64,000 nucleotides of DNA from an uncultured Chlorobiaceae bacterium. Lineage in GTDB: Bacteria; Bacteroidota; Ignavibacteria; UBA10030; SZUA-254. A program made the translations under genes and the position numbers. Under the pieces are notes generated by a model. It saw nothing but the letters and a program-made list of their open reading frames with translations. It did not search any database and was not told the origin of the DNA. This document shows, piece after piece, positions 1,656-59,134 of the stretch. The stretch spans positions 183,216 through 247,215 of the forward strand of contig CAZFQL010000001.1 in assembly GCA_964520905.1 (NCBI GenBank). Reading direction: 5' to 3'. How positions within the stretch are numbered: position 1 is the stretch's first letter; every line of letters starts with the position of its first letter.

Positions 1656-1912
1656 TTTTCTCTGATTCTTAATTTGGTAATGTCATGTTGAAGATCAACA
1701 GATGTGTACGTACCTCGCATATTTTTAAGCGCTCCCGCCCAATCAAATTTTAATGTTTTATGTTCCCGATGCTGGTGCTTTTTGATCAAAAATTCGATAA
1801 AGTCCTCGATTTCTTGACGCAAAGATGGGGATAATTGCTTAATTTTTTCTTCGATGTAACTCATTGTTATCTCTCGCAATGTCATTTTAATATACGAAGA
1901 GAATTGAATCAA
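1652..1912 (-). CDS. Antitoxin partner of the PIN toxin (small DNA-binding/antitoxin-like protein)
   Basis: 86-aa ORF immediately upstream of, and overlapping, the PIN gene, in classic antitoxin-toxin order. Confidence 0.55.
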   Translation of the reverse strand: MIQFSSYIKMTLREITMSYIEEKIKQLSPSLRQEIEDFIEFLIKKHQHREHKTLKFDWAGALKNMRGTYTSVDLQHDITKLRIREK

Positions 1913-1988
1913 GTCAACCTTGCGAAAAGCAACTTGCGAAAAGCAACCTTATTTAATCATTTAAATCATAAGCGTTAAATGAAATGAT

Positions 1989-2061
1989 CACTTTAAAGAA
2001 TTTCCAGAAAAGTCGTATTCAAAAGATACAAAACTATAACATAAATTTCTTGGAGGGAGTT
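1989..2061. repeat. Right copy of the direct repeat flanking the VapBC cassette; abuts the stop codon of the acyl-CoA ligase gene
   Basis: See 1198-1244. The copy ends 1 nt before the TGA (complement, 2062-2064) of the 2062-3582 gene. Confidence 0.6.
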
Positions 2062-3582
2062 TCAGGTTATCTGAATAATATCTCGTACTCTTTCGGTAAT
2101 CGTTCTGAAGTCAATCTTGCCGCTACCTGTTTTCGGCATCTCTGAGAGAACAATAAACTTGCTCGGGATTGCAATCTTGGGAAGTTGTCCCGACATTTTT
2201 TGAAGAATTGCTTTCTCATCAATCTGTTGTGTAACGGCAGCAACAATCCGGGATCCACGCAAGGCATCCGGCACTTCGACAACACAGCACTCAACATCGG
2301 CAGGAAGCAGATGTTCAAGAACATCTTCCACTTTTATCAGAGACACCATCTCTCCGCCGATCTTAAGAAAGCGTTTCAATCTTCCAACATGCCACAGATA
2401 ACCATCGGCATCCATATATCCCATATCACCGGTATCGTACCAGCCATGACGAATGCTCAACGATGTTTGCTCAAAATCATCAAAGTACCCTTTCATCACA
2501 TTATCGCCTTTGACAAGTATTTTACCTATTTCTCCAACTTTGCACTCTTCACTGGTTTCATAATTCTCTACTCTTACCTTGACGCCGTCAATCGGTCTGC
2601 CAACACTACCGGGACGATTATACTCTAATGTATTAACCGTAATCGCAGGACTTGTTTCGGTCGCTCCGTATGCTTCGAGTAAAATCTTATTATGCCTTTT
2701 CATGAATTCCTCCCTTAATGCATCCGGACACTTGTCCGCACCCGAGAGAAGTATGCGTGTAGATTTGAAATCGCCCGGCTTCGAATTCCTGAGATATCCC
2801 CAGAAGAACGTAGGTGTTCCAGCCATTAACGTGACATTTTCTTCACGAACGATATCACATATAGTTTTAAAATCCAACGGGTTGGCATATGTTACAATTG
2901 TCATCCCGACTATCAGCGGAACCCATAGATTTGCAGTCTGACCGAATACATGGAAGTATGGAAGGTTAGCCAGAAAAATATCATCTGATGAAAAAGAATA
3001 TGCTTTTGACAAACTTTCATAGTTGGAGAAAATATTTCTATGTGTAAGCTGAACAGCTTTCGGATCTTTTTCGCTTCCACTGGTAAATAGAATCAGAAGA
3101 GTATCATTTTCATTGCCGCGATGAATTCTTTTTAGGAGTCGCTCAACCGGAAGGCCTATGGTTAATATTGCTTTCATCTTATCTAATAGAGTTACAGACT
3201 TCATGATATCTTCGAGATAAATCATACCGTCAACATGAGGACAATTAATTTTCGCAAGAAGTGCTTTTGAGGTGATTATAGTCTTGAACGCACATTTCTT
3301 TTGAGCGAATTCACAGTTCATTGCAGCGCCAGTTGAGTAGTTGATCATCACCGGAATCCGGCCGCTCATAAGCGTGCCTAATATCGATAAAACTGATCCG
3401 GCTGAATTTGGCAGCATAATTCCAAGAAAACCAGGAGCGTATTTCTGAAATTTTTTAAAAAGAATGAGTGCGCCGATCAATGCGCGTTTGTAGGTCACCC
3501 GGCGATCGAGAGTTCTATCTATAATTGCTAATTTCTTCTCGTATTGTTTTGCAATTCGGACAAATTGTTGATGTAATAACAT
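2062..3582 (-). CDS. AMP-dependent synthetase/ligase (acyl-CoA or acyl-ACP synthetase family)
   Basis: 506 aa carrying the adenylate-forming motifs TSGSEKDPKAV, YGATETSP, GWYDTGDMGYMDADGYLWHVGR and a C-terminal PKTGSGKIDFR. Confidence 0.85.
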   Translation of the reverse strand: MLLHQQFVRIAKQYEKKLAIIDRTLDRRVTYKRALIGALILFKKFQKYAPGFLGIMLPNSAGSVLSILGTLMSGRIPVMINYSTGAAMNCEFAQKKCAFKTIITSKALLAKINCPHVDGMIYLEDIMKSVTLLDKMKAILTIGLPVERLLKRIHRGNENDTLLILFTSGSEKDPKAVQLTHRNIFSNYESLSKAYSFSSDDIFLANLPYFHVFGQTANLWVPLIVGMTIVTYANPLDFKTICDIVREENVTLMAGTPTFFWGYLRNSKPGDFKSTRILLSGADKCPDALREEFMKRHNKILLEAYGATETSPAITVNTLEYNRPGSVGRPIDGVKVRVENYETSEECKVGEIGKILVKGDNVMKGYFDDFEQTSLSIRHGWYDTGDMGYMDADGYLWHVGRLKRFLKIGGEMVSLIKVEDVLEHLLPADVECCVVEVPDALRGSRIVAAVTQQIDEKAILQKMSGQLPKIAIPSKFIVLSEMPKTGSGKIDFRTITERVRDIIQIT

Positions 3583-3615
3583 AGTCTATTTTATTTATTT
3601 AATTGTTTGTTTGAT

Positions 3616-3864
3616 CTAAGTTTCAACAGATATTTCCAACTGAGAAAGAAAAGAATGCTTATTAGTATCATTGGTCCATAGATTACCAAATATACCGGCA
3701 GTAGAAATCTTTGCCAATATCAATATACATAAAATATCACAGGAGTAAAAAAGATAATTCAGCCAAACAATTCCCATCGCCATGAGATAATAAGAGCAAA
3801 AACTATCACTCCCGTTGGAATCAAATGTATTGTTATAGCAGGCAGAGTTTCCCGGAAAACGCAC
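3616..3864 (-). CDS. Hypothetical small protein (GTG start); weak call
   Basis: Only an ORF in otherwise unassigned DNA, with one hydrophobic stretch; no recognisable motif. Confidence 0.2.
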   Translation of the reverse strand: MRFPGNSACYNNTFDSNGSDSFCSYYLMAMGIVWLNYLFYSCDILCILILAKISTAGIFGNLWTNDTNKHSFLSQLEISVET

Positions 3865-52932: not shown

Positions 52933-53088
52933 AAACTGTGGATTGATGTAATGATAGATTAGACCCTTCCCCGATTTTTGGACGAGAAGCTAAGACATAA
53001 AATATTATTATTCTGTTTTCGTGTATAAACCTTGACTTTCACGAGAAAAGATGTTATACTTTCCATTGAAGGCAATAGAGGAGATTTC

Positions 53089-53481
53089 ATGAAACGCATA
53101 TCATATTTGTTTTTACTTATAACCATGCTTTTCGGGTCGGTGAAAATCTATGCAAAATGGTCAACACCACCTATTATTGTGTTATCCTTTCTGTTAAGGA
53201 GGATATTCCTTTTTTCTCAATCATTTGATGTGTTGGAAAACTACCAGAACCCCTTCAATAATTCTGCCTTGATCGCGTACTACATTTCCAGCAATAGCCG
53301 TGTGAAAATCACTCTATATGATTTGCTAGTCCGAATGGTTAGAACCCTTGTCAATGAAAGAAAAAAGAATGGAACTTACAGCATTTGTTTCAAGATAGAC
53401 AATCTTACTAGTGGCACCTATTTCGCTGTATTGAAAACGAATTCAAATACATTAACTCACAAATTACTTCTCATCAAATAA
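53089..53481 (+). CDS. Minimal T9SS substrate: signal peptide plus a C-terminal sorting domain with essentially no passenger domain
   Basis: ATG preceded by AGGAG. MKRISYLFLLITMLFGSVKIYA, then about 25 aa, then a CTD homologous to that of the next gene (...LTSGTYFAVLKTNSNTLTHKLLLIK). Confidence 0.5.
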   Translation: MKRISYLFLLITMLFGSVKIYAKWSTPPIIVLSFLLRRIFLFSQSFDVLENYQNPFNNSALIAYYISSNSRVKITLYDLLVRMVRTLVNERKKNGTYSICFKIDNLTSGTYFAVLKTNSNTLTHKLLLIK

Positions 53482-53496
53482 CGAAAGGAGGTGATT

Positions 53497-54372
53497 ATGA
53501 AAATATTCCATATAGTTTTTTCGTTCATTGCACTTACTTCGTTTGTAATGTCCCAGACACCAGACTCGCTCAATTTTTTTCCCGCACACGCTGGTGATGT
53601 ACGGCAGTACCGTTCACAATTCACCGGCGAGATTACAATAACAGAATACCTTGATAAGGATTCAACTGATCAATTTGGGAACATATTTATCTGGTATCAT
53701 AATGCTGGCTGGGGAACTTTTAATATTTATAAAATAGATTCGTCAGGTAATGTTTATATACTCTATTCAGTGAGCGACACTGGTTATGTGCCGTTACTTT
53801 ATAAACTAAGTGCAGACACTGGGACTGTGTGGACATATCTAAAAAGAGATAGAGATAGTATTCTTGCTAAAGTCGTGGGGATTTTCCCAGGTTTCGTATA
53901 TGGTAAACAAGTAACAGTTAAAAAAATTGAATATACAAAATATTCAGAATTCGGTTCGTTTTGGTTAGGCAACCGATATTTGGCGACGGGATTTGGAATG
54001 GTACAATGGGACATTGAACCATCGGATGTTTATTATCTTGCAGGGGCAATAATAAATGGTGTACACTATGGAACAATTGTTTCTGTGAAAACAGATTTAA
54101 CTTTTCCCGAATCGTTTGAAGTGTTAACGAATTATCCCAACCCGTTTAACAATGGAACTGTTATTTCATATACTATTTCATCGGAAAGCCATGTGGAAAT
54201 TACGATCTACGACGTTTTAGGACGGGTTGTAAAAACACTTGTCAATGAAAATCAACAAAAAGGAGAGCATCAAATTTCTTTTAATGGAAATGGTCTTACC
54301 AGCGGTATTTATTTTGCTGTTCTACAAACTGTTTCAAAGACACTAACTCACAAATTACTTCTCATCAAATAA
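53497..54372 (+). CDS. T9SS-secreted hypothetical protein
   Basis: Signal peptide, and a C-terminal sorting domain NYPNPFNNGTVISYTI...LTSGIYFAVLQTVSKTLTHKLLLIK. SD sequence aaggagg lies 5 nt upstream. Confidence 0.6.
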   Translation: MKIFHIVFSFIALTSFVMSQTPDSLNFFPAHAGDVRQYRSQFTGEITITEYLDKDSTDQFGNIFIWYHNAGWGTFNIYKIDSSGNVYILYSVSDTGYVPLLYKLSADTGTVWTYLKRDRDSILAKVVGIFPGFVYGKQVTVKKIEYTKYSEFGSFWLGNRYLATGFGMVQWDIEPSDVYYLAGAIINGVHYGTIVSVKTDLTFPESFEVLTNYPNPFNNGTVISYTISSESHVEITIYDVLGRVVKTLVNENQQKGEHQISFNGNGLTSGIYFAVLQTVSKTLTHKLLLIK

Positions 54373-54386
54373 TACTGGAGGTTGTT

Positions 54387-56414
54387 ATGTTTACCCGAAT
54401 AGCAGTACACTTAGTTTGTGTTGTTATTTTATCCTTAACAACAGCCTATGCTGCGGACGAAAATTCTTGTGGCGTGCAAACTCAGCAGCAGCAAACGCAA
54501 ATAGGCGGCGCTTATTGCACAGCATCTGGAACTATAAAAGCGGTCTTCATTTTTATTGACTTCAAGGATGATATGGAAGATCGCACGAATTCAACGTGGC
54601 CCGTTGGCACAGGACCAAACTTCTTGAATAGTATTGTGGATGAAACCGAAACGCAAAACTCCGGAACGTATGCAAACGTTTCAACATTTTTTAACGATCA
54701 GAGTTTCGGACAATTCAAAATGATTGGGAAGGCATATTACGTTCAAGCACCTGAATCTCTTGCTTATTACAAAAGAGTGCATCCATGGGATGAAGTTGCA
54801 TATTCATCACAAGACGTAATTCAAATTCTCGACCAATCAGTTAATTTTTCAGATTTTGATAGATGGATAAGCAGTTACTACAGCCACTCACCCGGTACAG
54901 ATGGAAAAGTAGATATGGTATTCTTTTGCTATCGAAGGTGGTATAGCGAAGCTCCAAGTTTTTCATATGAGGGTTGGTGGCCAGCAGATTTGCCGGGTGA
55001 CGTTTATGTCGATAGTGGTGTGAGGAGAATTGGTGGTGCCCAGACAGTTGATGTTCTGAATATGATTCAATATCCTGATTGGGGAAGAAGCGTACAGAAT
55101 GTGGTGCACGAATTCGGTCATGTATGGGGTTTAAACCATCAATACGCTCCTGGAATGTGGGCACTAATGGGTCAACGATATCCGAGCACGAGCAGTTTTA
55201 TGAATGCCTTTGAAAGAGCACAACTTGGATGGATTGTTTATCATGATATTACTTCTTCCCAAATAGCGTCATTGCGTGATTTTGGAGCCTATGGCGATGC
55301 GTATAGAATTTCATTAGGCAATGGAGAATATTTTATTTTGGAAAATCATCAACGAAACAGCATTTATGATAATCCTGATGTAAATGTTCCCGCAGCAAAA
55401 GGATTATATACTCTTCGCCAATTTTCATTTCAGTATTCTCCTTATGCAGGCAATTTAAAAATTGAAACTGCTGATGGTCGTTTTAATTGGTCAAATCCAA
55501 GTTGGGGGATTTTTCCAGGGACAAATGTTTTTTACCCCACATTTCAAAGAGGAGTCAGCAATAGAACACTAGGTTCAAATGACCGAGACTTGTTGTCTGC
55601 TGTTAATCCTAATACTGGTCAACAAGGTTACTATTATTTAATTGCTAAAGTTGATGAAATATCGGGACAGACAGTCTATGGTTCTTTCTACAAAGGTGAT
55701 GGGAAAGATGCTTTTAATTTGGGATTTAACACTGTTTTCACACCTTGGAGTAATCCTTCTGCTTGCTCAAAAAATGGAACACTATCAAATGTTGGAATAG
55801 AAATATTACCATCATCTACTTCAACTTTGGATATTCAGTTTTTCATCGGAAATCCTCTAAGCGCTTCCCCGTCAAGACCTCAAGATGTCCGAACAACATC
55901 AGTTGTAAATGGTAGCACCTCACTAGTTTGGACTGCAAATCCAGAAACAGATGTTTCTGGATACAACATCTATCGCGGTGTTGCTTACTCTGGCAGCAGT
56001 GAACCAACTTACACTAAGATCAACTCATTGATCGTGACCACAATCTCCTACACAGACAACAATTACGAGTCCATCGCAGGGCTTCCACAAAACATCGATC
56101 TCTACCACCGATATAGAATAACTGCCGTGGATAACGAAGGTAAAGAATCCGTCAAGTCAGAATACGTTGATGCCTATTTCACTCATGTTGCAAATGGCTC
56201 AATTAGTTCCAATCGGACTTGGCAAATTGACGTCAGATTAGTTTCTGATGCAACAGTCACAAGCGGTAATATCCTCACAGTTTTTCCCAGTACAACAGTA
56301 AAGGTTGTCAATGGTTATACATTAACCATCAACGGTAAACTAATCGCAAAAGGAGACCCAAACAATAGAATTACTTTTACATCCAATAATTCAAATCCAT
56401 CTGCAGGCGATTGA
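54387..56414 (+). CDS. Secreted metzincin-type zinc metalloprotease with an FN3-like domain and the start of a beta-helix; terminated by an in-frame TGA that is followed in-frame by 56496-57965
   Basis: Signal peptide. HEFGHVWGLNH is a complete HExxHxxGxxH metzincin motif. A YNIYRG... FN3-like segment follows. The TGA at 56412-56414 is the only interruption of the 54387-57965 reading frame. Confidence 0.7.
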   Translation: MFTRIAVHLVCVVILSLTTAYAADENSCGVQTQQQQTQIGGAYCTASGTIKAVFIFIDFKDDMEDRTNSTWPVGTGPNFLNSIVDETETQNSGTYANVSTFFNDQSFGQFKMIGKAYYVQAPESLAYYKRVHPWDEVAYSSQDVIQILDQSVNFSDFDRWISSYYSHSPGTDGKVDMVFFCYRRWYSEAPSFSYEGWWPADLPGDVYVDSGVRRIGGAQTVDVLNMIQYPDWGRSVQNVVHEFGHVWGLNHQYAPGMWALMGQRYPSTSSFMNAFERAQLGWIVYHDITSSQIASLRDFGAYGDAYRISLGNGEYFILENHQRNSIYDNPDVNVPAAKGLYTLRQFSFQYSPYAGNLKIETADGRFNWSNPSWGIFPGTNVFYPTFQRGVSNRTLGSNDRDLLSAVNPNTGQQGYYYLIAKVDEISGQTVYGSFYKGDGKDAFNLGFNTVFTPWSNPSACSKNGTLSNVGIEILPSSTSTLDIQFFIGNPLSASPSRPQDVRTTSVVNGSTSLVWTANPETDVSGYNIYRGVAYSGSSEPTYTKINSLIVTTISYTDNNYESIAGLPQNIDLYHRYRITAVDNEGKESVKSEYVDAYFTHVANGSISSNRTWQIDVRLVSDATVTSGNILTVFPSTTVKVVNGYTLTINGKLIAKGDPNNRITFTSNNSNPSAGD

Positions 56415-56495
56415 CAAGGCATCATTTGCTCAGGCGGCGGCCCTGATACACTAACCTACTGCAATATCAAATATGCATACGACGGTCTCCGATTA

Positions 56496-57965
56496 ATGAA
56501 TACTGCTGCCAATAGCTACATGCAAAATGATACAATCTCACGCTCGGCAAATTATGGACTGTTTGTTTCTAACACAGGAACAGCAAACACTTCCTTGAAA
56601 ATGTATAAATGCGGTGTGAGTTATAACGATGGGAGAGCAATTCAAGTCAATAATGCAAAAATCCTTATATCATATTCACGAATCGAGAGCAATGAATTGC
56701 AATCGATCGGTGTGTCGAATGTTTACGTTTGTAACGGTGGAAAAGTTTATATGGACAGCACACGAATCCAGAATAATATTGGCAGCGGCATTGATATCAG
56801 CGGAACAAACTCAAGAGTTTCACTTAGTATCAATGAAGTAACCAAGGGCTACAATACAGTAACACAAAATGGAGTTGGCGAGATATATGTACATAATTCT
56901 GCTACTGCATTCCTTGGATATATAGGATCAGGCGGGCCAATAGGAGGATGGAATAATGTATATAATAACGGAACCTACACCGGTCGTTTAATCAACAATG
57001 CCACAACAACAACAGTCCGAGCTCGGTACACTTACTGGGGTACACATAGGCCCAATGAATACGTTGGACCTGTCGATACGCTTTATCAACTTGGAAGCGC
57101 AGTCAACACACCTTCAAAAACGGTATTTACTCTGCCGGAAGAAGGGCAATTAGCTTATGACCTTGATATACAGGAGATGCTTGATTGGTTGAAACAATTA
57201 AAGAATGACATTGAAGCGAACAGAGACAATGCAGAAGATGCCTTTTATCAGCTTGCACTTCATGCAGGTCCCGGAGGAGAATATCAAAGTGTGCTGTCTG
57301 TATCGTGGGAAACTTTCTTAAGTACAATCGAGACATCCACGTTACCAGTGAAGCTGAAAATGTTAGCAGTTGGACTTCGCCTTCAATCGATGTTGGATCA
57401 GAATCAGTTTCGGAGTGCGATTACATTATCGAATCAGATACTAAGCCGGAAAGGTATCACTACCGACATGTGGTTATATTGCCAGACCAGAAAGATATTT
57501 GCATCAGTTGGACTGGGCGACAGTCTCAACGCTTGGTCAACCTTCAATGGAATAAAGGATTATGGTGGGATTATCGATAGCTCAGCGATTAAAACGATGG
57601 AAGAATATCTCACACTTACAATGGGTCTCAACAACGGAAAAGTTGCCAGTGTAAATAATCCGTTCGGGAATAACGATGAGAGTACTGACGGCATAAAACC
57701 CACAGTATATTCACTTGTGCAGAATTATCCAAACCCATTCAATCCCCTAACTCTCATCCAGTATGGACTGCCGGAGCAATCACATGTAACACTGAAAATC
57801 TATGATATACTTGGTCGTGAAGTTAGAACACTTGTCGACGAAGTCCAGGAAGAAGGGTACAGGTCGGTAATGTTTGATGCAAGCAGTATACCAAGCGGTG
57901 TATATTTCTACCGTATACAGGCGGGCGGCTTCAACGATATAAAGAAAATGGTACTTGTCCGATAG
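56496..57965 (+). CDS. Parallel beta-helix repeats plus a T9SS C-terminal sorting domain; probably the C-terminal part of the metzincin gene
   Basis: No signal peptide. The sequence begins in mid beta-helix (NIKYAYDGLRLMNTAAN is encoded just upstream, in-frame). CTD ...YPNPFNPLTLIQY...SGVYFYRIQAGGFNDIKKMVLVR. Confidence 0.65.
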   Translation: MNTAANSYMQNDTISRSANYGLFVSNTGTANTSLKMYKCGVSYNDGRAIQVNNAKILISYSRIESNELQSIGVSNVYVCNGGKVYMDSTRIQNNIGSGIDISGTNSRVSLSINEVTKGYNTVTQNGVGEIYVHNSATAFLGYIGSGGPIGGWNNVYNNGTYTGRLINNATTTTVRARYTYWGTHRPNEYVGPVDTLYQLGSAVNTPSKTVFTLPEEGQLAYDLDIQEMLDWLKQLKNDIEANRDNAEDAFYQLALHAGPGGEYQSVLSVSWETFLSTIETSTLPVKLKMLAVGLRLQSMLDQNQFRSAITLSNQILSRKGITTDMWLYCQTRKIFASVGLGDSLNAWSTFNGIKDYGGIIDSSAIKTMEEYLTLTMGLNNGKVASVNNPFGNNDESTDGIKPTVYSLVQNYPNPFNPLTLIQYGLPEQSHVTLKIYDILGREVRTLVDEVQEEGYRSVMFDASSIPSGVYFYRIQAGGFNDIKKMVLVR

Positions 57966-57988: not shown

Positions 57989-58023
57989 AAGCCGGCTCGG
58001 ATAACGGGTCGGCTTTTATTTTG
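57989..58023. terminator. Bidirectional rho-independent terminator between convergent genes
   Basis: aagccggctcgg / cgggtcggctt stem with GU pairs and an ataa loop, followed by ttttattt. It overlaps the stop codon of the minus-strand gene. Confidence 0.6.
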
Positions 58024-59134
58024 CCAAAATCATCTTTCGCGTCTCGGAGATATTACCAACCTGCAATCGATAATAATAGGTTCCGCTTGCAATACCGGAA
58101 GCATTCCATTTAACATCGTAACTTCCTTGCTGTTTTGTCTCATCGATCAGAGTCGCTATCTCTCTGCCGATTGCATCGTACACTTTTAAACTGACGTGAC
58201 TCCAATCTCCGATTTGAAATCTGAAATCTGTTGTCGGGTTGAACGGATTCGGGTGGTTTTGTTCCAGCGTGAATGATCGCGGGCGCAAACCGGTTGCTTC
58301 ATTAACTGCGTTGATCACTTGCGCATTATACCATGCGGTATACCACAATGATGCCAAAGCAACCGTTGCCTGCTGGATTTCATCCTTAGTAAAACCTCCG
58401 GTTTTTTGCCAGAGAGCTTCATAGTAAGCCGCCGGCGGTGTTCCGGAACCGTTCCATCCTGAAATAATCTTCGATAAAGAATCAGCCGCAATCAACGTAT
58501 CGACAAGTGAATTTGAATGATATATAAAATTAAAAACGTAATCGAGCGGCGCAGTAATATATTGAATTGAATCGGGATGAACGGTAATATACGACTGATA
58601 GGTGTTGATCATCTGTGATTCATAACGGAAATGCAATCCGCCGGGATTGTAATTGACGGTACAATGAAGCGGCTGATGTCCATCGGCAACATAATGACCG
58701 AGATCGCTCATGGTGGTTTCCACTTTGACCATATCGCCCCTCGAGAGCTGTGCGGTCAACGAATCCAGCACCATCGCTATTGCCCATGGCAGCGTACCCT
58801 GGCTTTTTACATAAGCTCTTCCGTATAAAATTATCATGGAATCGAGACTATGCGGGAGGTTGAGATAATCGGGATAGATATCGATATCGAGGTAGTGTCT
58901 TGTATCTTCTGCAAAGAACGAAGTGTCGCTGTAATCTTTCCGGTAATCGGCATCGGATGCGTGTGCCTGATAAAAAAGACTATCGGCTTTAAGTGCAGAC
59001 ATGGATCCGGGCAGATGCATGACGGCTTTTAGGTTGATTAATTTGTGCGCGGTAGAACCCCACGCATATGCGAAGTTCAGTGAAAGGAATAAAAGTGGCA
59101 GGCATCCGATAAGGATGCTTATATAGCGTTTCAT
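58016..59134 (-). CDS. Secreted S1/P1-type zinc nuclease (phospholipase-C fold) with a T9SS C-terminal sorting domain
   Basis: Mature N-terminus WGSTAHKLIN (the W1/H6 zinc ligands of P1 nuclease). LGHYVADGHQPLH matches P1 HFIGDMTQPLH. CTD HPNPFNPTT...SGTYYYRLQVGNISETRKMILAK. Confidence 0.65.
   Translation of the reverse strand: MKRYISILIGCLPLLFLSLNFAYAWGSTAHKLINLKAVMHLPGSMSALKADSLFYQAHASDADYRKDYSDTSFFAEDTRHYLDIDIYPDYLNLPHSLDSMIILYGRAYVKSQGTLPWAIAMVLDSLTAQLSRGDMVKVETTMSDLGHYVADGHQPLHCTVNYNPGGLHFRYESQMINTYQSYITVHPDSIQYITAPLDYVFNFIYHSNSLVDTLIAADSLSKIISGWNGSGTPPAAYYEALWQKTGGFTKDEIQQATVALASLWYTAWYNAQVINAVNEATGLRPRSFTLEQNHPNPFNPTTDFRFQIGDWSHVSLKVYDAIGREIATLIDETKQQGSYDVKWNASGIASGTYYYRLQVGNISETRKMILAK

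What the first reader, a model, noticed from the sequence alone, without database searches (positions are those of the whole stretch)
56412..56414. A single in-frame TGA splits a roughly 1190-aa metzincin / FN3 / beta-helix / T9SS-CTD protein into two ORFs
54387-56414 has the signal peptide and catalytic HEFGHVWGLNH but no sorting domain. 56496-57965 has the beta-helix repeats and the CTD but no signal peptide and no plausible RBS. It starts mid-repeat, and the 81 nt between the two ORFs are open in the same frame (QGIICSGGGPDTLTYCNIKYAYDGLRL). Other genes in the window use TGA as a true stop (for example 2062-2064), so this is not a recoded genome. The likely options are a recent nonsense mutation that uncouples protease from sorting signal, a sequencing error, or programmed readthrough or selenocysteine (the latter is unlikely because no selenocysteine incorporation element is evident).
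Basis: seen in the sequence. Interest (0 to 1): 0.6.

Follow-up and report, generated by a model that had tools for sequence, protein, structure and literature searches.

The report
Fresh nonsense mutation splitting a secreted protease gene
One G-to-A change has turned a fully conserved tryptophan codon (TGG) into a TGA stop inside a large secreted metalloprotease gene of an uncultured, probably Ignavibacteria-type bacterium, separating the enzyme from its export tag; this is an ordinary, very recent gene-inactivating mutation, not recoding.

Summary
ORF 54387-56414 ends in TGA at 56412-56414, and the same frame stays open for 516 more codons to TAG at 57963-57965.

- **The site is a conserved Trp.** All 10 homologues that span it have Trp. 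The positional orthologue P0003 is one 1293-aa ORF. The closest DNA relative reads GGCGATTGGCAAGG against the window's GGCGATTGACAAGG.
- **The stop lies inside a domain.** It falls within a continuous beta-helix, and ORF2's ATG falls inside a beta-strand.
- **TGA is a normal stop here.** Twelve other ORFs end in TGA, four of them at the ends of Pfam profiles.
- **There is no recoding signal.** No SECIS-like or other stable structure follows the stop.
- **The TGA is reproducible.** It appears base for base in separate assemblies of two to three sequencing runs, and no TGG allele is on record.
- **The downstream half shows no decay.** dN/dS is 0.13, with no excess of changes.

So this is a very recent TGG>TGA nonsense mutation. 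It should leave a Sec-exported protease without its T9SS sorting domain. Any leak of UGA by tRNA-Trp would restore the wild-type protein (inferred).

Interest is low. One side observation: the C-terminal cassette is shared between genes with different protease domains.

The parts
54387..56414 (+). ORF1, 675 aa. It contains an N-terminal signal-peptide-like helix, an M6-like zinc metalloprotease, an FN3-like domain and the first ~73 aa of a beta-helix. It ends at the premature TGA.
   Evidence: ORF call. TIGR03296 M6 domain, E = 2e-13, 50.9 bits, below the 110.8 cutoff. AlphaFold model: pLDDT 80-96 for aa 40-600 and below 50 for aa 603-675. An identical protein (P0001) is in NCBI and Logan.
54387..54455 (+). 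Predicted Sec signal peptide (MFTRIAVHLVCVVILSLTTAYA|ADE).
   Evidence: Read by eye from the translation. Modelled as helix 2-22 followed by a disordered linker. No signal-peptide predictor was available.
55107..55139 (+). Zinc-binding motif HEFGHVWGLNH (HExxHxxGxxH).
   Evidence: Sequence. H241, E242, G244, H245 and H251 are invariant in 23 homologues. The family profile weakly matches the MMP-2 catalytic domain, E = 1.3e-3.
55869..56186 (+). FN3-like beta-sandwich domain (about aa 495-600).
   Evidence: Strands 499-600 in the model. Foldseek matches titin and other Fn3 domains, TM 0.68-0.75, probability 1.00. Pfam did not detect it.
56190..57072 (+). Right-handed beta-helix domain, continuous across the stop codon (approximate limits).
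   Evidence: A single tblastn HSP with P0044 starts at 56190. Pfam Beta_helix hit is sub-threshold. In P0044 the Beta_helix match at 582-715 spans its Trp634. The P0045 model has confident beta-helix strands from residue 8 to about 221 (pLDDT falls below 70 after about residue 190), and Trp55 opens strand 55-61 in a block with pLDDT 89.
56412..56414 (+). Premature TGA stop. The ancestral codon was TGG (Trp), and the changed base is 56414 (G>A).
   Evidence: Trp in 10 of 10 homologues. L009 DNA reads GGCGATTGGCAAGG against the window's GGCGATTGACAAGG. The TGA is present in Logan contigs L001 and L002.
56415..56495 (+). 81 nt (27 codons) that are open in frame but have no start codon. They encode beta-helix residues QGIICSGGGPDTLTYCNIKYAYDGLRL.
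   Evidence: Highly conserved in homologues (GPDTLTYC.IKYA). 87-100% nt identity to L009. No RNA structure or Rfam match.
56496..57965 (+). ORF2, 489 aa. It holds the rest of the beta-helix, a helical (TPR-like) region and the T9SS type A C-terminal sorting domain (about 57726-57953). It has no signal peptide of its own.
   Evidence: ORF call. PF18962 E = 5.6e-10 and TIGR04183 E = 1.9e-11, both above cutoff. Annotated separately in NCBI as P0043. Its Met corresponds to P0045 Met83, inside strand 76-83. dN/dS is 0.126 against L009.
57989..58015 (+). Terminator-like hairpin (11 pairs, then a T-run) after ORF2. It is the only such site downstream of ORF1.
   Evidence: No terminator-like site was found between 56414 and 57965.
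53491..54372 (+). Upstream 293-aa T9SS-CTD gene. Its synteny identifies P0003 as the positional orthologue.
   Evidence: 58% identical to the 285-aa gene directly upstream of P0003 in L010. PF18962 E = 5e-13.

Best explanation
A single, very recent G>A transition at 56414 changed a structurally conserved Trp codon (TGG) to TGA. The codon lies in the first rungs of the beta-helix of a ~1192-aa T9SS cargo protein (signal peptide, M6-like zinc protease, FN3, beta-helix, helical region, CTD).

**Shown:**
- The gene was one ORF.
- The ancestral codon was Trp.
- TGA is an ordinary stop in this genome.
- The allele is reproducible across separately assembled runs.
- The downstream half has not decayed.

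**Inferred:**
- Translation now ends at residue 675.
- The product is exported to the periplasm by Sec but lacks the CTD that T9SS needs for outer-membrane translocation.
- It also carries a 73-aa unfoldable beta-helix stub, so it is probably retained or degraded.
- ORF2, if translated at all from ATG 56496, would be a cytoplasmic fragment with no signal peptide that starts inside a beta-strand.

The locus is therefore a nascent pseudogene, or a loss-of-secretion allele.

Any low-level misreading of UGA by tRNA-Trp(CCA) would insert the ancestral residue and make a trace of wild-type protein. That is plausible from general knowledge but untested here.
For: **One gene, not two.**
- One frame with one internal stop.
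- A single HSP with P0044 runs through the stop.
- Full-length relatives P0003 (1293 aa) and P0011 (1195 aa) have the same architecture.
- P0003 is syntenic.
- Trp is found at the site in 10 of 10 homologues, and W84 is an invariant column.
- The nearest DNA relative has TGG.
- The site lies inside a confidently modelled beta-helix strand.
- The ORF1 tail at aa 603-675 has pLDDT below 50.
- The only terminator-like hairpin follows ORF2.

**Standard genetic code.**
- Twelve other ORFs end in TGA.
- Four of those stops coincide with the ends of Pfam profiles: DHDPS 2-287/289, penicillin amidase 1-673/675, Yip1 3-172/173, and RmlD.

**A real allele.**
- Logan contigs from SRR13723396 (the same contig in 2 samples) and SRR13723393 match the window with 0 mismatches and include the TGA.
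- P0001's 90% cluster has one member, and no protein spans the junction at about 100% identity.

**Recent.**
- The post-stop dN/dS is 0.126 with dS 0.51 against L009.
- The window has 5 lineage-specific changes, against 9 and 21 in the uninterrupted relatives.
- There is 1 conservative change at 100 otherwise invariant columns.

**T9SS requirement.** Cargo needs a signal peptide plus a CTD (abstract of PMC12618676, seen).
Against: - No read pile-up could be inspected. The Logan runs have adjacent accession numbers and may be the same data the MAG was built from, so they exclude an assembler error but not a systematic error or a mixed population.
- The complete lack of decay downstream fits recent inactivation, but it fits continued translation by readthrough equally well.
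- Both Logan contigs stop at window 56540. The continuity of the 3' half therefore rests on the MAG assembly through a stretch shared with a paralogous cassette.
- No expression or protein data are available.
Confidence: 0.8

Rival explanations
1. Functional or tolerated UGA-to-Trp readthrough. The stop is leaky (UGA followed by C), so the cell makes mostly a short periplasmic form plus some full-length secreted enzyme. Selection therefore still maintains the downstream half.
For: - The downstream 516 codons show no decay at all.
- The residue a near-cognate tRNA-Trp would insert is exactly the conserved one.
- Endogenous E. coli tRNA-Trp(CCA) gives background UGA readthrough, and 4-bp anticodon-stem variants enhance it (PMC13092985).
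- From my own knowledge, UGA is the leakiest stop codon in bacteria, and a 3' C gives a weak termination context in E. coli.
Against: - No relative conserves a stop here, and all 10 encode TGG.
- No stimulatory structure follows the stop. Folding z-scores are +0.8 to +1.0 and there is no Rfam match.
- The absence of decay is equally expected for a mutation only a few generations old.
- Background leak is typically far below 1-few %, which does not amount to a designed mechanism.
- No tRNA gene lies in the window, so tRNA-Trp could not be examined.
Confidence: 0.08
2. Sequencing or assembly artefact, or a minority allele. The true population sequence is TGG and the gene is intact.
For: - The source is a metagenome-assembled genome (279-kb contig).
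- The downstream half is pristine.
- The region lies next to a repeat shared with a paralogous cassette, where the assembly graphs break at 56540.
Against: - The same TGA is found, with 0 mismatches over 2.2-3.5 kb, in contigs assembled separately from two to three runs.
- The TGA lies 126 nt upstream of the graph break, on the unique side.
- No TGG-allele protein exists in the 15-billion-protein collection.
- From general knowledge, a G>A substitution outside a homopolymer is not a typical Illumina consensus error.
Confidence: 0.07
3. A natural two-gene arrangement. A protease gene without a sorting domain is followed by a separate beta-helix/CTD gene that starts at ATG 56496.
For: - NCBI lists two separate proteins, P0001 and P0043.
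- Many family members are ~700 aa.
- The lack of an SD motif is not disqualifying in this genome.
Against: - The ~700-aa relatives carry their own CTD (PF18962), and ORF1 has none.
- ORF2 has no signal peptide.
- ORF2's start lies inside a beta-strand of a domain that begins 75 aa upstream of the stop.
- The 27 codons that lie between the TGA and the first possible start, and so belong to neither ORF, are among the most conserved of the cassette.
- No homologue starts at the equivalent Met.
Confidence: 0.02
4. Selenocysteine insertion at UGA.
For: Only the in-frame UGA itself supports this.
Against: - No SECIS-like hairpin is found downstream of the stop. The MFE is no better than shuffles, and no relevant Rfam match appears at E <= 10.
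- Homologues have Trp, not Cys.
- The position is a structural beta-helix residue, not a redox site.
Confidence: 0.01
5. Alternative genetic code (UGA = Trp or Gly, tables 4/25).
For: Reading UGA as Trp would give the conserved residue.
Against: - Twelve other ORFs in the window end in TGA and close within 2-44 codons.
- Four of those stops coincide with the ends of Pfam domain profiles.
- No other long ORF pair in the window is joined only by a TGA.
Confidence: 0.01

Closest known systems
Nonsense-mutation pseudogenes ('split genes') in bacterial genomes and MAGs
   Same: There is a single premature stop one mutational step from the conserved sense codon. Both halves are still homologous to one-piece relatives, and public annotation calls them as two CDSs.
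   Different: The event is extremely young, with no secondary lesions and no rate acceleration downstream. The stop falls exactly between the catalytic part and the secretion signal, so the predicted phenotype is mislocalisation rather than simple loss of the enzyme.
T9SS type A cargo proteins: Sec signal peptide plus PF18962/TIGR04183 C-terminal domain (e.g. gingipains, and the 'T9SS-dependent M6-like/M36 metalloprotease' families of NCBIfam)
   Same: The reconstructed 1192-aa protein has the signal peptide, protease module, accessory domains and a type A CTD scoring above curated cutoffs. Three neighbouring genes also carry CTDs.
   Different: - As encoded, the CTD is uncoupled from the signal peptide.
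- The protein does not reach the cutoffs of NF052323 or NF038113 (36.7 against 600 bits, matching only over the CTD).
- The organism appears to be Ignavibacteria-like rather than a classical Bacteroidia.
Peptidase family M6 (immune inhibitor A) and metzincin-type zinc proteases
   Same: It has an HExxHxxGxxH motif that is invariant across the family, a TIGR03296 match over 274 residues, and a weak profile match to the MMP-2 catalytic domain.
   Different: - It scores below the curated TIGR03296 cutoff (50.9 against 110.8 bits), and PF05547 does not hit this protein.
- The third ligand position is His, whereas the InhA-type relatives P0044/L009 have Asp (HEFGHIIGFYDDY).
Leaky UGA decoding by tRNA-Trp(CCA) (classical UGA leakiness; 4-bp anticodon-stem tRNA-Trp, PMC13092985)
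   Same: The in-frame UGA sits where Trp is required, and misreading would regenerate the wild-type protein.
   Different: The stop is not conserved, no stimulatory element is present, no tRNA information is available, and there is only one such codon in 64 kb.

Membership tests
Premature-stop (nonsense) pseudogene | Homologues are continuous across the site and align to both halves in one frame. | tested here: met
   One tblastn HSP with P0044 spans 56190-57962. Alignments with P0003, P0011 and P0045-P0051 agree.
Premature-stop (nonsense) pseudogene | Homologues carry a sense codon one substitution away from the stop. | tested here: met
   Trp in 10 of 10 homologues. TGG in L009 DNA.
Premature-stop (nonsense) pseudogene | The codon is a functional stop in this organism. 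| tested here: met
   Twelve other TGA-terminated ORFs. Four of these stops fall at Pfam profile ends.
Premature-stop (nonsense) pseudogene | The stop is real in the reads, not an assembly artefact. | tested here: inconclusive
   Identical TGA in separately assembled Logan contigs from 2-3 runs. No read pile-up was available, and the runs may be the MAG's own data.
Premature-stop (nonsense) pseudogene | Full-length product is lost. | not testable with these tools
   Needs proteomics or a reporter assay.
Bacterial selenoprotein gene | A SECIS stem-loop immediately 3' of the UGA. | tested here: not met
   Folding z-scores of +0.8 to +1.0 and no stable hairpin. No Rfam match near gathering score.
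Bacterial selenoprotein gene | Cys or Sec at the position in homologues. | tested here: not met
   All have Trp.
Bacterial selenoprotein gene | selA/selB/selC/selD present in the genome. | not testable with these tools
   Only a 64-kb window was available. It has no tRNA genes, and the source genome is not in genome contigs.
Programmed stop-codon readthrough | The stop codon is conserved in orthologues. | tested here: not met
   None of the 10 homologues has a stop at the site.
Programmed stop-codon readthrough | A stimulatory downstream structure or context. | tested here: not met
   No structure beyond shuffled controls. The only context feature is a 3' C.
UGA-reassigned genetic code (table 4/25) | UGA is not used as a terminator, and in-frame UGAs are frequent in conserved genes. 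| tested here: not met
T9SS type A cargo protein | A C-terminal PF18962/TIGR04183 domain scoring above cutoff. | tested here: met
   39.8 bits against a 27 cutoff, and 43.8 bits against a 23 cutoff, at the end of ORF2.
T9SS type A cargo protein | An N-terminal Sec signal peptide on the same polypeptide as the CTD. | tested here: not met
   The signal-peptide-like N-terminus is on ORF1 only. ORF2 has none. The feature is met only for the reconstructed, pre-mutation protein.
Peptidase M6 (InhA) family | Matches the curated family model above its cutoff. | tested here: not met
   TIGR03296 scores 50.9 bits against a 110.8 cutoff. There is no PF05547 hit, only Reprolysin_5 at 17.8 bits against a 27 cutoff. 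The protein is best described as 'M6-like'.
Peptidase M6 (InhA) family | An HExxH zinc-binding motif with a downstream third ligand. | tested here: met
   HEFGHVWGLNH, invariant in 23 relatives.

The most novel reading that the evidence does not exclude
The TGA is not a dead end but a tolerated or selected leaky stop. Near-cognate tRNA-Trp restores the conserved Trp at a low rate, so one gene yields a periplasm-retained short protease and a small amount of full-length T9SS-secreted enzyme. More broadly, breaks between the catalytic domain and the sorting cassette may recur in this gene family as loss-of-secretion ('cheater' or dosage-switch) alleles. A related gene in L009 carries an independent frameshift in the same general region.
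Probability: 0.05. Interest if true: 0.55.

Novelty: new member of a known kind. Interest (0 to 1): 0.14.

Why it matters
- **Annotation.** The public record carries two unrelated-looking CDSs (675 aa and 489 aa). They should be one pseudogene, or one gene with an internal stop.
- **Biology.** This is a clean, datable example of a mutation that uncouples a secreted enzyme from its T9SS address tag. It could serve as a natural marker of strain-level loss of a public-good protease in an Ignavibacteria-type population.
- **No new mechanism.** Nothing here needs one. The side observation may be of more general interest than the stop codon. An 88-93% identical beta-helix/helical/CTD cassette is attached to different protease domains, which points to cassette exchange among T9SS cargo genes.

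Tried and rejected
**Explanations considered and rejected**
- **Selenocysteine or structured recoding.** Folding of 56400-56500 and three sub-windows gave z-scores of +0.8 to +1.0. An Rfam scan of 56200-56700 at E <= 10 gave only chance hits to snoRNA and sRNA families, far below gathering scores.
- **Alternative genetic code.** Rejected from stop-codon usage and Pfam end-coverage.
- **'No RBS' as evidence.** Only 13 of 49 ORFs have an SD core upstream, so this argument was dropped.

**Searches and jobs that gave little or nothing**
- **Source genome or a TGG allele.**
  - The genome-contig scan with the cassette protein returned only CTD-level matches in Ignavibacteria, Melioribacteraceae and Kapaibacterium MAGs.
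  - Two metagenome contigs DNA-pattern scans returned 0 hits. One had N at the mutated base. The other used a 41-mer conserved between the window and L009.
- **Exact-protein contig look-ups.** Look-ups for ORF2 (P0043) and P0044 found nothing on record, so P0044's DNA and genome of origin remain unknown.
- **Structure of the reconstructed protein.** P0045 (85% identical) was modelled instead.
- **Foldseek of the P0045 model against the PDB.** Only weak partial matches with E > 1e-3 were found: beta-helix lyases and tailspikes, and the mirolase T9SS CTD. These were used only as a qualitative check.
Full report
**1. The observation**

The window has an ORF at 54387-56414 (675 aa) that ends in TGA at 56412-56414. 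A second ORF at 56496-57965 (489 aa) lies in the same frame.

- Translating 54387-57965 in one frame gives 675 codons, one TGA, then 516 open codons to a TAG stop.
- The 27 codons after the TGA read QGIICSGGGPDTLTYCNIKYAYDGLRL and contain no ATG, GTG or TTG.
- Among 51 long ORFs in the window, 31 end in TAA, 13 in TGA and 7 in TAG. Four other ORFs are also followed by long open stretches in the same frame (183-440 codons). Each of those follows a TAA or TAG and is simply the next gene in the same frame. This is the only ORF pair joined by a TGA alone.
- The window is 42.5% GC. A random frame would stay open for 516 codons with a probability of about 1e-14 (my arithmetic).

**2. What the two halves are**

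*ORF1.*
- It matches the M6 metalloprotease domain model TIGR03296 over residues 55-328 (E = 2e-13). The score of 50.9 bits is below the curated cutoff of 110.8.
- It carries HEFGHVWGLNH. The H, E, G, H and final H of that motif are invariant in 23 relatives.
- An AlphaFold model built on those relatives is confident for residues 40-600.
- Its best matches to solved structures are fibronectin type III domains (titin Fn3, TM 0.68-0.75), corresponding to the beta-sandwich at about 495-600. Pfam itself did not see an FN3.
- The last 73 residues of ORF1 are modelled with pLDDT below 50.

*ORF2 and the 27 preceding codons.*
- They give a sub-threshold Pfam Beta_helix match.
- They give clear T9SS type A sorting-domain matches: PF18962 at 39.8 bits (cutoff 27) and TIGR04183 at 43.8 bits (cutoff 23).

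*Transcription unit.* The only terminator-like hairpin lies after ORF2, at 57989-58015.

**3. Relatives are single genes with Trp at the site**

- *Full-length search.* It returned ORF1 itself (P0001; NCBI and Logan; 279-kb contig). Many hits were ~700-aa relatives in which the protease is followed directly by a CTD. Two long relatives share this architecture: P0003 (1293 aa) and P0011 (1195 aa). Both align across the stop and have Trp there.
- *Positional orthologue.* The gene directly upstream of P0003 is 58% identical to window 53491-54372.
- *90% cluster of ORF2.* It also contains a 1150-aa NCBI protein, P0044, which reads ...MSGDWQGIVCSGGGPDTLSYC.... P0044 residues 560-1150 align to window 56190-57962 as one 88%-identical HSP through the stop.
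- *Cassette search.* It returned seven more proteins, P0045-P0051. All have Trp at the site, and none starts at the Met of ORF2. In a joint alignment the Trp column is invariant.
- *DNA of the nearest relative.* L009 reads GGCGATTGGCAAGG where the window reads GGCGATTGACAAGG.

The change is therefore TGG>TGA, a G>A transition at 56414.

**4. The stop lies inside a folded domain**

A model of P0045 (85% identical over the cassette) shows three parts:
- a beta-helix, from residue 8 to about 221 at good confidence;
- a helical region at 308-459;
- a C-terminal beta-sandwich at 501-570.

Trp55, the equivalent of the stop, opens strand 55-61 in a block with pLDDT 89. Met83, the equivalent of ORF2's start, ends strand 76-83.

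In P0044 the Pfam Beta_helix match (582-715) spans its Trp634.

ORF2 is therefore not a natural gene start.

**5. No recoding**

- *Genetic code.* TGA terminates 12 other ORFs. In DHDPS, penicillin amidase, Yip1 and RmlD the stop coincides with the end of the Pfam profile.
- *RNA structure.* The RNA around and after the stop folds no better than shuffled sequence (z = +0.8 to +1.0). Rfam gives only chance-level hits.
- *Homologues.* They have Trp, not Cys, and none conserves a stop.
- *tRNA genes.* The window has none.

**6. Is the TGA real?**

- *Logan contigs.* Two contigs from SRR13723396 (the same contig seen in two samples) and SRR13723393 match the window with 0 mismatches over 3459 and 2252 bp. 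Both include the TGA.
- *Where they end.* Both end at window 56540, 126 nt past the stop.
- *Likely reason (inference).* The window and L009 are 96-100% identical over 56460-56550. The assembly graph probably branches where the cassette becomes identical to a paralogous copy in the same samples.
- *What this implies.* The TGA lies on the unique side of that branch.
- *No TGG allele on record.* P0001's 90% cluster has one member, and no protein spans the junction at about 100% identity.
- *Remaining gap.* A read pile-up, the decisive test, was not available.

**7. Age**

- Against L009, the 516 post-stop codons give dN = 0.065, dS = 0.51 and dN/dS = 0.126.
- With P0046 as outgroup, the window has 5 lineage-specific changes, against 9 for P0044 and 21 for P0045.
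- At 100 columns invariant in seven other cassettes, the window has one conservative V>I change.

No decay is detectable. Either the mutation is very recent, or the segment is still translated.

**8. Mechanism and consequence (inferred)**

T9SS cargo needs a Sec signal peptide and a CTD (PMC12618676 abstract, seen).

- The truncated product keeps the signal peptide and loses the CTD. It should reach the periplasm and go no further, carrying an incomplete beta-helix stub.
- ORF2 would be cytoplasmic if it is made at all.
- UGA is known to be misread at a low rate by tRNA-Trp(CCA) (PMC13092985). Here that would regenerate the wild-type residue, so a trace of intact enzyme is plausible. Nothing indicates that this leak is programmed.

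**9. Comparison with known things, and verdict**

This is an ordinary, young nonsense pseudogene in a T9SS cargo gene of an uncultured bacterium. The closest named relatives are Ignavibacteriales, Melioribacteraceae and 'Bacteroidota' MAGs.

The 'no RBS' argument is weak, because only 13 of 49 ORFs have an SD core upstream. 'M6-like' is a safer label for the protease than a named family.

Confidence in the nonsense-mutation reading is about 0.8. The remainder is split among passive or selected readthrough, artefact, and the other alternatives. Interest is low.

**10. Side observations**

- *Shared cassette.* The beta-helix/helical/CTD cassette is 88-93% identical to cassettes attached to a different, InhA-type protease domain (P0044, L009). 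Nucleotide identity to L009 rises from about 55% before 56325 to 87-100% after 56415. It ends exactly at the gene's stop codon. This suggests cassette exchange or gene conversion among cargo genes.
- *A second broken gene.* The L009 gene is itself broken by a 1-nt insertion in a T-run between its protease domain and the cassette.

Noticed in passing
L009 (ENA ERZ27248239 k141_2545043), about 1936-1945; ORFs 349-1965 and 1883-3796: A related InhA-type M6 protease plus beta-helix/CTD gene is itself disrupted. An extra T in 'gctcatttttgcatt' shifts the frame. Deleting one T restores ...AHF|ALNGI..., as in P0044. This is a second, independent break between the catalytic domain and the sorting cassette in this gene group. 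Whether it is real or an assembly error is unknown.
   Followed up: partly
window 56190-57965, compared with P0044 aa 560-1150 and L009 2020-3796: The C-terminal cassette (beta-helix, helical region, CTD) is 88-93% identical in amino acids to cassettes joined to a different protease domain. Nucleotide identity to L009 rises from about 55% before 56325 to 87-100% after 56415, and stops exactly at the stop codon. This looks like cassette exchange or gene conversion between T9SS cargo genes.
   Followed up: partly
window 56540 (3' ends of L001 and L002): Both independently assembled Logan contigs end at the same base, 126 nt after the TGA. This is probably a graph branch where the sequence becomes identical to a paralogous cassette present in the same samples. 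The linkage of ORF1 to this particular 3' half therefore rests on the MAG assembly.
   Followed up: partly
window 53032-53481, 53491-54372, 54387-57965 (+) and 58016-59134 (-): Four consecutive genes carry T9SS type A C-terminal domains. One is an S1/P1-nuclease-like protein on the minus strand. The 149-aa ORF at 53032-53481 consists of little more than a leader and a CTD.
   Followed up: partly
window, all long ORFs: Only 13 of 49 ORFs have a GGAG/GAGG/AGGA core within 25 nt upstream of the naive start. Shine-Dalgarno-led initiation is therefore the minority in this organism, as in many Bacteroidota-related lineages.
   Followed up: no
window 8812-9549/7912-8805, 30379-31443/31447-31995 and 39971-41143/38648-39961: Other neighbouring ORF pairs happen to lie in the same frame, separated by TAA or TAG, with 183-440 open codons after the stop. 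They have their own starts and were not examined for homology across the junction. They look like ordinary adjacent genes.
   Followed up: no
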